Of a DNA stretch of 64,000 bases, positions 20,627-23,515 are shown in pieces. The stretch lies in the IMG/VR virus record IMGVR_UViG_2875697941_000001; one strand, given 5' to 3'. Below the pieces are notes generated by a model. That model saw only the letters and a list, made by a program, of their open reading frames with translations, made no database searches and had not been told where the DNA came from. The position numbers were made by a program, and so were the translations under genes. Every line of letters begins with the position of its first letter. The stretch's first letter is position 1. The stretch comes from a virus. Taxonomy: Duplodnaviria > Heunggongvirae > Uroviricota > Caudoviricetes.

Positions 20627-22746
20627 AAGAGCTGTGCTATGGATCTGTTTGCAGTGGAATTGAAGCCGCGAGTATTGCCTGGGAACCGTTGGGTATGCGT
20701 CCGGCGTGGTTTGCTGAAATCGAGCCTTTTCCATCTGCCGTTCTTGCGCACCGCTGGCCCCATGTCGCCAACCTTGGCGACATGACAAAACTTGCCAAAA
20801 AAGTCCTGGCTGGGGAAATCGAATCCCCTGATGTGCTCGTCGGGGGTACGCCTTGTCAGGCATTCAGTATCGCGGGCTTACGTGGTGGGCTTGATGATGA
20901 ACGCGGCGCGCTAACTTTGAAGTATGTGGAGCTTGCAAATGCAATTGACGACAAACGGTCTGAGTCCTTCCTCAAACCGACAGTTATCGTCTGGGAAAAT
21001 GTCCCAGGAGTCCTGTCATCGGCAGATAACGCCTTCGGATGTTTCCTTGCCGGATTGGCTGGAGAAGATGCGCCATTTGAACCAGGTGATCGACCTGAAT
21101 CAGGAAAAAGTAACGCGTTCTGGCGGTGGGATGGCAAAACCGGTTGCCATGCTCCAAAGTGGCCGCAGTGTGGTTGTATTTATGGACCGCAGCGAAAGGT
21201 GGCCTGGAGAATCCTTGATGCCCAATACTTCGGAGTGGCACAACGACGCCGACGCGTGTTTGTTGTCGCAAGTGCTCGAACAGACCTCGATCCCGCAACG
21301 GTACTTTTTGAGTTCGAAGGCGTGCGCCGGAATATTGCGCCGAGCCGAAAAAAGAAGGAAATCGCTTCCGCCATTATTGCAAATGGCGCTGCAATCAGTG
21401 GCGAAAGCCTAAATCCATGCCTACACGCTGACATGCCACCCAGTATGAAATCGACGAAAGCCGTAAACGCTTTCAGGATGGCAGCATTTGGGGAATATAT
21501 TGACGATGAAACCGCATCGACAGTAAAGGCAAGAGATTTTAAAGATGCCACTGACCTTGCCGTTTTTAGCAGCACAGGAGCAGGTTTTTGGTCAGAAGGG
21601 CATGGTACATTGCGGGCACGTGAGCAAGAAAGCCATGAGCATCTTGTTACATTGGCTTTTCCTGAGCGTATGAGCGGTACACAACATGCTGCAACTAAGA
21701 ATACTTCACCATCTCTAATGGCTAAAAATCCAACAGCTGTTTGCTATGAAGTAAGAAACGCAGAAGTAGCTGTCCGCCGTCTTACCCCTGTCGAATGTGA
21801 AAGGCTGCAAGGTTTTCCTGATGGGCATACGTTGATCCCGACGGAAAAGCGTAAAAAAGTTAATTCAGATGAACTGGCATATCTTCGCAATCACTATCCA
21901 GATTTAAGCGAAGAAGAGGCCGCGATGCTTGCAGCTGACGGACCGCGTTACAAAGCGATCGGCAATAGTATGGCAATACCAGTAATGCGCTGGATTGGCG
22001 ATCGGATTACTAAGGCCGTATGTCGGCAGAAAGAAGGAAGTGAAACAAAAGAGCGAAAAGTTAAACCAGCGGCAGAATTCGAACGGTCCATATTCAAATG
22101 GGCTGGTGGAAAATTTGGTGTTCAGGAACAAATCTTTCGCTATTTGCCAGAAGGGAAGCGCCTGATCGAACCTTTTGTCGGTGGCGGAGCTGTCTTCACG
22201 AATGCCGGATACCAGGAAAATCTGCTAAATGATGTGAATGCTGACCTGATTAACTTTTACAAGACTCTGCAACGCGAGGCGCATTCACTTATCACACTGG
22301 CGCATCGTTTCTTCCAGGACTACAACACACAGGAAGGATACCTGGCAGTACGGAATGCGTTTAACAAACAAGTCTATGATGATTTACATCGCGCAGCGGC
22401 GTTTTTGTTCCTGAACCGACATTGTTTTAACGGATTGACGCGTTACAACCAGGCCGGTGAGTTCAATGTCGGTTACGGGAAGTATAAAACTCCGTATTTC
22501 CCATTACAGGAGATGGAAGCCTTCCTCGGTGCGGAAGGGCGGTCTGAGTTTGTATGCGGTGATTTTGCAGCGGTGATTGAAGCTGCCGGAGAAGGAGATG
22601 TCATCTTTTGCGATCCGCCGTATGAACCGCTTCCAAATACAGAGGGATTCACGAACTATTCCGGTCATGACTTTAAGTTTGAAGAGCAAAAACGCCTGGT
22701 GCTGAGAGATCCCCTCATAATTTCCCCAAAACGTAACCATGTGTGA
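20623..22746 (+). CDS. dmt: bifunctional DNA methyltransferase (N-terminal C5-cytosine MTase-like, C-terminal Dam-like N6-adenine MTase), apparently 3'-truncated
   Basis: 707-aa ORF; PCQ motif near N-terminus; ENV motif; FVGGGAVF and DPPY motifs in C-terminal half; only about 40 aa follow DPPY, fewer than in Dam enzymes. Confidence 0.75.
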
Positions 22747-22939
22747 ATAGATTTTGAGTAAGCAGGGTTGCAGCCACGAGTGAGTCTTCCCTTGTTATTG
22801 TGTAGCCAGAATGCCGCAAAACTTCCATGCCTAAGCGAACTGTTGAGAGTCTCGGTGTGAGATGCTTTACGTCTTCCAAGCCCCCTTCCTTGCCGTAAAT
22901 GGAAAGATACATCTAATTATAGAATTTATATGTTTTACC

Positions 22940-23515
22940 CTACGGCAGTGCTGGCCATTCAATATCCTGTGCAGTTGACGTATCAACACGGTTCAGCAAC
23001 ACCCGATACTTTTTCCAGGCTTCCAGCAATGAGGTTTCTTCCTCCGTTGCGATTTCCAGATCTACAGCATCCTGAAGTGGCGCAATATGCTCACTGGCTA
23101 CCTGCATCAGGCTGTTTTTTGTTTCTTCCGCCTCTCGGATCCGGAACAGTTTTTCTGCTTCTGCATCTTTCACCCAGGCTGTGCCGTTCCACTTCTGAAA
23201 CTCCCCTTCCGGCGATAACCAGGTAACATTTTCCGGTAACGGACCGAGTTCAGAAATAAATAACGCGTCCCCTGACGCTACGTCATAAACCGTTTTACCC
23301 CGATGGTCTTCAACGAGATGCCACGATGCCTTATCACTGTTGAAAACAGCCACAAAGCCAGCAGGAATATCTGGTGGTGCAATATCGGTACTGTTTGCTG
23401 GCAGACCTGTATGAGGCGGAATATATGCGTCACCTTCACCAATAAATTCATTAGTTCCGGCCAGCAGATTATAAATTTTTATGGTCCGTGGTTGTTCACT
23501 CATTCTGAATGCCAT
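22940..23515 (-). CDS. tfa: tail fiber assembly protein Tfa (lambda type)
   Basis: C-terminal 191 aa from [20 protein letters not shown]; in this window in frame with and contiguous to stf. Confidence 0.8.

What the first reader, a model, noticed from the sequence alone, without database searches (positions are those of the whole stretch)
22700..22940. Abrupt P1-like / lambda-like junction that truncates the dmt methyltransferase
The P1-type module ends inside the Dam-like domain of dmt (only about 40 aa after the DPPY motif), and within about 200 bp the lambda tfa stop is reached. The lambda b region that normally separates tfa from the attachment site is absent, and I did not find an att-core-like sequence at the junction. 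This is either a real phage-plasmid/lambdoid recombinant or a chimeric assembly join.
Basis: seen in the sequence. Interest (0 to 1): 0.6.

Follow-up and report, generated by a model that had tools for sequence, protein, structure and literature searches.

The report
Scaffold join at IS10, not recombinant
The abrupt P1/lambda junction is a place where a plasmid contig that ended 148 bases inside a repeated IS10 element was pasted onto a chromosomal prophage contig in a scaffolded draft genome, and the only real biology is an ordinary IS10 insertion in the dmt gene of a P1-like plasmid.

Summary
P1 homology stops at 22701, inside the Dam domain of dmt, and the tfa stop codon follows at 22940.

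The 238-base "spacer" has two parts:
- 22702-22849 is the terminal 148 nt of IS10/ISVsa5.
- 22850-22939 is the native sequence downstream of tfa in a lambdoid prophage at the DLP12 site.

The dmt|IS10 boundary is a true transposition junction. In the closed plasmid pYLMB49b, which is identical to window 1-22850 with no mismatch or gap, IS10 is complete (1329 bp). It has a 9-bp target duplication, and the rest of dmt follows it.

The IS10|lambdoid boundary at 22849/22850 is artificial, for four reasons:
- Three sister "chromosome" records (CP035320, CP035321, CP035322) break IS10 at the same nucleotide. Each then continues into a different sequence.
- The window itself contains an N21 gap flanked by identical 112-bp copies, and a 137-140-bp unmerged overlap. 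About 215 bp and 70 bp are also missing at other block boundaries.
- In the closed genome of strain MB49, the two halves lie on separate replicons, each about 100% identical to the window.
- No other public sequence I searched carries the junction.

Verdict: this is contig concatenation, not a phage-plasmid/lambdoid hybrid. Interest is low.

The parts
1..22701 (+). P1-like phage-plasmid module (P1 coordinates 46407-68490). Its last gene is dmt.
   Evidence: Window 1-22850 is 100.000% identical, with no gaps, to pYLMB49b NZ_CP073955.1 54963-32114. It is 98.6% identical to P1.
20623..22746 (+). dmt' ORF of 707 aa: P1 Dmt residues 1-693 plus 14 codons read from IS10, then a stop codon.
   Evidence: The exact 707-aa protein is on record in only 4 records.
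22702..22849 (.). Terminal 148 nt of IS10/ISVsa5, from the end that carries the transposase C-terminus. The terminus abuts dmt, so this is a real transposition junction at 22701/22702.
   Evidence: 100% identical to ISVsa5 in NZ_OW849377.1 and in pYLMB49b. The complete 1329-bp element with the 9-bp duplication CGCCTGGTG is present in pYLMB49b.
22849..22850 (.). Artificial contig-to-contig join between an internal IS10 position and lambdoid prophage DNA.
   Evidence: Three records have the same IS10 breakpoint followed by three different continuations. Homology overlaps by only 1 nt. The junction 37-mer is absent from three public collections.
22850..22939 (-). Native spacer downstream of tfa in the prophage. 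In intact relatives, the stop codon of a pinR-type recombinase gene lies 8 bp beyond 22850.
   Evidence: 100% identical to the MB49 chromosome and to E. coli GE3. PhiR34_1 annotation.
22940..23515 (-). tfa, the tail fibre assembly gene (191 aa).
   Evidence: Pfam Caudo_TAP, E = 3e-44. It is annotated in relatives.
22850..23525 (-). A 676-bp block, most likely a separate repeat contig carrying tfa. It is bounded by joins on both sides.
   Evidence: Block boundaries against the closed MB49 chromosome.
23522..23525 (.). Second join. The 3' end of stf (215 bp) is missing, which creates a spurious Stf-Tfa fusion ORF at 22940-26266 (1108 aa).
29424..29429 (.). Third join. About 70 bp of gene J is missing, which shifts the reading frame.
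29966..30241 (.). Fourth join. Two blocks overlap by 137-140 bp and the overlap is written twice in tandem, inside gene J.
31279..31523 (.). Fifth join. A run of 21 N (31391-31411) is flanked by two identical 112-bp copies.
22850..64000 (-). Lambdoid prophage at the DLP12 site, running from tfa, stf, lom and J through to intD. In the closed relative it is chromosomal.
   Evidence: Window 46000-64000 is 100% identical over 18,001 bp to the MB49 chromosome NZ_CP073953.1. Window 22850-34500 is 99.9-100% identical in blocks. The neighbours in MB49 are pinR-type recombinase, ydfK, ompT, envY and nfrA.

Best explanation
The window comes from a scaffolded short-read draft deposited as a chromosome (it matches CP035322.1, about 93922-157921).

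What is real: a P1-like phage-plasmid of the pYLMB49b lineage carries an IS10 insertion in dmt. IS10 is present in several copies, two of them on that plasmid alone. The plasmid contig could therefore only be extended 148 nt into IS10 before it ended.

What is artificial: that contig end was then written directly, with no N spacer, next to the start of an unrelated contig. The second contig is a 676-bp tfa repeat contig from a lambdoid prophage at the chromosomal DLP12 site. The P1/lambda adjacency and the chimeric 65-aa ORF across it (22715-22912, minus strand) are therefore not biological. The apparent loss of the region beyond tfa is not biological either.

Shown: the identity of each segment, the shared breakpoint with different partners, the other join artefacts, and the separate replicons in a closed relative.

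Inferred: the assembly procedure itself. I saw neither reads nor method metadata.
For: 1; the exact 707-aa Dmt'-IS10 protein occurs in one 94-kb plasmid and in three >5-Mb records with consecutive accessions.
2; in all three big records, IS10 stops at the same nucleotide (...GTTGAGAG). Three unrelated sequences follow it. One of them has scattered Ns directly after the join.
3; the other two continuations are a 768-bp island fragment followed by an N and an IS1 piece, and a chromosomal GTPase-island gene.
4; window 1-22850 equals pYLMB49b with 0 mismatches. There IS10 is complete, has a 9-bp target duplication, and the dmt 3' end follows.
5; the lambdoid half is about 100% identical to the closed MB49 chromosome, where tfa is followed by a pinR-type recombinase gene, ydfK and ompT.
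6; there are four further joins within 9 kb. They show missing 215 bp and about 70 bp, a duplicated 137-140 bp, and N21 flanked by 112-bp copies. Each lies exactly at a block boundary against the closed genome, and the joins break stf and J.
7; no phage record, plasmid or RefSeq complete E. coli genome spans the junction. No contig in the genome, viral or metagenome collections carries the junction sequence.
Against: I had no access to reads or to the assembly-method field of the record, so the concatenation procedure is inferred. Real IS-mediated chromosomal integration of P1-like elements may exist: AP027926.1 shows a P1-like block that gives way, after an IS transposase gene, to non-P1 genes. 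A biological event is therefore not impossible a priori. The extension and overlap lengths (148, 137-140 and 112 nt) are not one fixed k-mer length, so I cannot name the assembler behaviour precisely.
Confidence: 0.96

Rival explanations
1. A real rearrangement in this strain. The dmt::IS10 P1-like plasmid became joined to the chromosome next to the DLP12-site prophage. The event would be illegitimate recombination or a deletion, with one endpoint inside IS10 and the other 90 bp downstream of tfa.
For: The dmt|IS10 junction is genuine. P1-like blocks do occur inside long records elsewhere. The sequence reads through the junction without Ns.
Against: The same internal IS10 nucleotide is the breakpoint in three records with three different partners. 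That would need three independent events at one base. There is no homology at the join, only a 1-nt overlap, and the endpoint is not an IS terminus, so it is not a transposase product. The flanking 9 kb is full of demonstrable join artefacts. A relative that is identical over the regions compared keeps the two halves on separate replicons. The junction is found nowhere else.
Confidence: 0.03
2. A natural hybrid phage that combines a P1-type replication/partition module with lambda-type structural genes. It would circulate as a phage-plasmid/lambdoid chimera.
For: Only the raw adjacency of the two modules in the window.
Against: Everything listed for the previous rival applies. In addition, both modules are otherwise complete copies of independent replicons. 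The stf and J genes of the would-be hybrid are broken at the artefactual joins. None of 50,697 phage records or 72,556 plasmid records covers the junction.
Confidence: 0.005
3. A graph misassembly through a shared repeat. Both replicons would carry IS10 at the joined positions, and the assembler crossed over inside it.
For: IS10 is multi-copy, and the break lies inside it.
Against: The lambdoid side has no IS10 at this position in the closed relative. Only 148 nt of one IS10 end is present, and the two sides share 1 nt. A repeat-mediated crossover would leave a full IS10 flanked by the two sequences. End-to-end pasting of contigs fits better.
Confidence: 0.01

Closest known systems
Plasmid pYLMB49b (NZ_CP073955.1, E. 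coli MB49), a P1-like phage-plasmid with dmt::IS10
   Same: It is 100.000% identical to window 1-22850, including the dmt|IS10 junction and the 707-aa truncated Dmt.
   Different: In the closed plasmid, IS10 is complete (1329 bp) with the 9-bp duplication CGCCTGGTG, and the dmt 3' end, tciA and ban follow it. The window stops 148 nt into IS10.
Lambdoid prophage at the DLP12 site of the E. coli MB49 chromosome (NZ_CP073953.1), with relatives such as phage PhiR34_1 and the GE3 prophage
   Same: It is 99.9-100% identical to window 22850-64000 in blocks, with the same gene order from tfa to intD.
   Different: The closed prophage continues past tfa into a pinR-type recombinase gene, ydfK, ompT and envY. 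It has intact stf and J. The window lacks 215 bp and about 70 bp, and it duplicates 140 bp and 112 bp at the block boundaries.
Phage P1 dmt (NC_005856, 754 aa) and the laboratory P1 record with an incomplete dmt (AF234173)
   Same: The gene, its position and its two-domain methyltransferase are the same. From my own knowledge, P1 tolerates loss of part of dmt; AF234173 is annotated 'dmt, incomplete'.
   Different: Here the cause of the truncation is an IS10 insertion at P1 68490, not a deletion.
Reference-ordered pseudo-chromosomes built from short-read contigs (a general class of assembly artefact; from my own knowledge)
   Same: The breaks lie in repeats (IS10, tfa, J). Overlapping contig ends are left unmerged, short N runs are present, and plasmid contigs sit inside the 'chromosome'.
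   Different: Most joins here carry no N spacer, which makes them look like real sequence.

Membership tests
IS10 / ISVsa5 (IS4 family) insertion | The element terminus (inverted-repeat end) lies exactly at the boundary with target DNA. | tested here: met
   22702 starts with CTGAGAGATCCCCTCATAATTTCCCC. It is 100% identical over 148-149 nt to the end of annotated ISVsa5 copies.
IS10 / ISVsa5 (IS4 family) insertion | A 9-bp target-site duplication and a full 1329-bp element with its transposase gene. | tested here: met
   This is met in the closed plasmid pYLMB49b, which is identical to the window up to 22850: a 1329-bp element, a 402-aa transposase and the CGCCTGGTG duplication. Within the window itself only 148 nt are present.
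P1-like phage-plasmid (Punavirus) | Collinear P1 gene order (repL, kilA, parAB, repA, hrdC, dmt) with high nucleotide identity. | tested here: met
   98.6% identity to P1 across P1 46407-68490, and 100% to pYLMB49b.
Lambdoid prophage at the DLP12 site (intD) | Lambda-type order from int to tfa, with identity to a chromosomal prophage that has known flanks. | tested here: met
Real phage-plasmid x lambdoid recombinant | The junction is reproducible in an independent or closed assembly. | tested here: not met
   0 of 5,426 complete E. coli genomes, 72,556 plasmids and 50,697 phage records span it. There are 0 exact hits in the genome, viral and metagenome contig collections. In the closed relative the two halves are on separate replicons.
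Real phage-plasmid x lambdoid recombinant | A recombination signature at the breakpoint: an att core, shared homology, or an IS terminus on the joined side. | tested here: not met
   There is no att core, the overlap is 1 nt, and the IS10 side of the join is an internal position.
Contig-concatenation artefact | The same contig end is joined to different partners in sister assemblies. | tested here: met
   CP035320, CP035321 and CP035322 all break after ...GTTGAGAG and then diverge.
Contig-concatenation artefact | Other scaffold signatures in the same record: N runs, unmerged overlaps, and missing pieces at repeat boundaries. | tested here: met
Contig-concatenation artefact | No reads span the join. 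| not testable with these tools
   Reads and assembly metadata are not available here.

The most novel reading that the evidence does not exclude
In the strain behind CP035322.1, the dmt::IS10 P1-like plasmid has truly become linked to the chromosome beside the DLP12-site prophage, through an illegitimate event that ends inside IS10. The identical breakpoints in the two sister records would then be coincidental, or artefactual only in those records.
Probability: 0.02. Interest if true: 0.3.

Novelty: not a real feature. Interest (0 to 1): 0.04.

Why it matters
The main value is as a warning. A record labelled as a complete chromosome contains plasmid contigs and unmarked contig joins. These create fake hybrid mobile elements, fake fusion genes (Stf-Tfa, and a chimeric 65-aa ORF) and fake frameshifts in J. 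Scans for novel phage mosaics or integrated phage-plasmids should filter such records.

The real biology underneath is ordinary: an IS10 insertion that removes the last 62 codons of the Dam domain of P1-type Dmt. It is already present in a closed public plasmid.

Tried and rejected
- Lambda att core: I searched both strands of the whole window with up to 2 mismatches and found nothing. This is uninformative anyway, because the prophage uses intD rather than lambda int.
- Literature: searches for the accession and assembly numbers CP035320-22, CP073955 and GCA_0041166xx/GCA_0041168xx returned no papers. The assembly method could therefore not be read.
- Public collections: exact scans for the IS10|lambdoid junction in genome, viral and metagenome contigs gave no hit, and so did a viral-contig scan for the dmt|IS10 junction.
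- Pin-invertible tail-fibre segment: I considered whether 22850 marks the edge of such a segment, which could break assemblies. I rejected this because the closed relatives show tfa followed directly by the recombinase gene, with no alternative fibre segment.
- IS10-mediated deletion or inversion: I rejected this because the joined IS10 position is internal, not a terminus.
- De Bruijn crossover through a shared repeat: I rejected this because the two sides share only 1 nt, and the closed relative has no IS10 at the lambdoid position.
- A first attempt to fetch CP073955.1 without the NZ_ prefix failed.

Full report
**1. Observation**

- Similarity to phage P1 (99.9%) runs up to window 22701, which is P1 68490. 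P1 dmt ends at 68676, so the last 186 bp of dmt are absent.
- The ORF at 20623-22746 (707 aa) translates as ...[31 protein letters not shown] followed by [14 protein letters not shown] and a stop. That puts the stop 40 residues after DPPY, and the last 14 residues are foreign.
- Pfam places the D12 adenine-methylase domain at residues 493-692, covering profile positions 1-210 of 253. The domain is therefore truncated.
- On the minus strand, a 191-aa Caudo_TAP tail-fibre assembly gene (tfa) ends at 22940.
- The lambda att core is absent from the whole window, even with 2 mismatches allowed.

**2. What the spacer is**

The 238 bases between the end of P1 homology and the tfa stop are not anonymous.

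- Positions 22702-22849 are 100% identical to the end of IS10 (annotated ISVsa5, IS4 family). They begin at the element's terminus, CTGAGAGATCCCC.
- Positions 22850-22939 are the native sequence downstream of tfa in related lambdoid prophages. In those prophages, a pinR-type serine recombinase gene ends 8 bp further on.
- There are therefore two junctions. The first, at 22701/22702, joins dmt to an IS10 terminus. The second, at 22849/22850, joins an internal IS10 position to prophage DNA.

**3. The first junction is real**

- The exact 707-aa protein is on record in four records.
- One is the closed 94,013-bp plasmid pYLMB49b of E. coli MB49 (poultry, Cuba; NZ_CP073955.1).
- Window 1-22850 matches this plasmid at 100.000% over 22,850 bp, with no mismatch or gap.
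- In the plasmid, IS10 is complete: 1329 bp with a 402-aa transposase. It is flanked by the 9-bp duplication CGCCTGGTG, and the remaining dmt 3' end, tciA and ban follow it.
- The plasmid carries a second IS10 copy 20 kb away. IS10 is therefore a repeat that short reads cannot cross.

**4. The second junction is an artefact**

(a) The other three records that carry the protein are CP035320.1, CP035321.1 and CP035322.1. They have consecutive accessions and are each about 5.0 Mb.

- All three carry the same P1-like block, and all three break IS10 after the same nucleotide (...GTTGAGAG).
- The continuation differs in each. One leads into a 768-bp DUF945/DUF905 island fragment, then an N and an IS1 piece. 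One leads into a chromosomal GTPase-island gene, with single Ns scattered directly after the join. The third is our tfa region.
- The third record (locus L009) matches the window: the displayed sequence is identical, and the N run falls at the corresponding position. This places the window at about CP035322.1 93922-157921.
- One fixed end with three different partners is what a contig end looks like. A recombination breakpoint would not behave this way.

(b) The window itself is visibly a scaffold.

- It contains a run of 21 N at 31391-31411, flanked by two identical 112-bp copies.
- It contains an immediate tandem repeat of 137 bp at 29969-30241.

(c) The closed MB49 genome provides the expected true structure for both halves.

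- Window 46000-64000 is 100% identical over 18,001 bp to the MB49 chromosome NZ_CP073953.1. This was the best of 6,149 matching records.
- Window 22850-34500 aligns to that chromosome in five blocks, each 99.9-100% identical. The block boundaries are 22850, 23522-25, 29424-29, 30102-05 and 31390/31412.
- At these boundaries the window lacks 215 bp (the stf 3' end) and about 70 bp (inside J). It also repeats 140 bp and 112 bp.
- The consequences are a spurious 1108-aa Stf-Tfa fusion ORF (22940-26266) and a J gene split across three frames.
- In MB49, tfa is followed by a pinR-type recombinase gene, ydfK, a methyltransferase gene, ompT, envY, ybcH and nfrA. From my own knowledge, this is the DLP12 locus of E. 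coli K-12. There is no IS10 and no P1 DNA at that position.

(d) The two sides share a single nucleotide at the join.

- This is neither homologous recombination nor a transposase-made end.
- It is also not a graph crossover through a shared repeat. It fits end-to-end pasting of contigs.

(e) The junction occurs nowhere else that I could search.

- No place covers it in 50,697 phage records, 72,556 plasmids or 5,426 complete E. coli genomes.
- The 37-mer across it has no exact match in the genome, viral or metagenome contig collections.

**5. Mechanism**

What is real is an IS10 transposition into dmt of a P1-like phage-plasmid.

- The insertion removes 62 C-terminal codons of the Dam-type domain and adds 14 IS-encoded codons.
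- By inference, this probably inactivates the adenine-methylase half of Dmt.
- From my own knowledge, P1 can rely on the host Dam, and laboratory P1 strains with partial dmt deletions are viable. AF234173 is annotated 'dmt, incomplete'.

What is not real is the adjacency to lambda-type genes.

- It arises from how the record was built. The plasmid contig ended 148 nt into IS10.
- That length is close to what a 150-nt read anchored in unique sequence could reach. This is my inference and is untested.
- The contig was then placed next to a 676-bp tfa repeat contig, with no gap marker.

**6. Comparison and novelty**

- Every component is a member of a well-known family: IS10, the P1-like phage-plasmids, and the lambdoid prophages at the DLP12 site.
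- Each component is present, at 100% identity, in an already closed public genome.
- The junction that made the finding interesting is not a biological feature.

**7. Residual doubt**

- I could not inspect reads or the record's assembly method.
- P1-like blocks do sit inside other long records, and at least one may be a real IS-bounded integration. I therefore leave about 3% for a genuine rearrangement in this strain.
- Read mapping or PCR across 22849/22850 would settle the question.

Noticed in passing
window 31279-31523: A run of 21 N (31391-31411) lies inside the tail-gene region of the prophage, flanked on both sides by the same 112-bp sequence. This is an unmerged contig overlap in a record deposited as a chromosome.
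   Followed up: yes
window 29966-30241: An immediate tandem duplication of 137-140 bp lies inside gene J. It is absent from the closed MB49 chromosome and from phage PhiR34_1, so it is another unmerged overlap. It shifts the J reading frame.
   Followed up: yes
window 23522-23525 (ORF 22940-26266, minus strand): 215 bp of the stf 3' end are missing relative to three relatives. The loss creates an apparent 1108-aa Stf-Tfa fusion protein. It sits at a block boundary, so it is an artefact and not a novel fused tail fibre.
   Followed up: yes
window 29424-29429: About 70 bp of gene J are missing relative to MB49 and PhiR34_1, with a short CAGCGC/CAGACGC similarity at the edges. The loss frameshifts J.
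   Followed up: yes
window 22715-22912, minus strand: A 65-aa ORF spans the artificial join. Its C-terminal part is the end of the IS10 transposase, and its N-terminal part is read from the tfa-downstream spacer. It has no Pfam match and is a chimeric non-gene.
   Followed up: yes
L011 (NZ_CP073955.1) 11041-12249 and 31041-32249: The closed P1-like plasmid pYLMB49b carries two ISVsa5/IS10 copies in the same orientation, 20 kb apart. One is in dmt and one is in an acyltransferase gene. Together they bracket ban, tciA and the baseplate genes like a composite transposon.
   Followed up: no
L022 (AP027926.1 1293957-1314496), L015 (CP168949.1), L019 (CASDMX010000001.1): P1-like blocks occur inside other records longer than 4 Mb. 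In L022 the sit gene is cut short, an IS transposase gene follows, and then non-P1 genes. This could be a real IS-mediated chromosomal integration of a P1-like element, or another scaffold artefact.
   Followed up: no
window 51388-59516: The immunity, replication and early region of the prophage differs from phage PhiR34_1: only patches align, at 95% identity. It is nevertheless 100% identical to the prophages of MB49 and four other E. coli genomes. This is ordinary lambdoid mosaicism.
   Followed up: partly
L006 12228-13257 and L008 12377-12494: The sister records CP035320.1 and CP035321.1 show the same patchwork directly after the IS10 stub: a 768-bp fragment, a single N, a 264-bp IS1 piece, and scattered single Ns. 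All three records therefore seem to be scaffolds of similar quality.
   Followed up: partly
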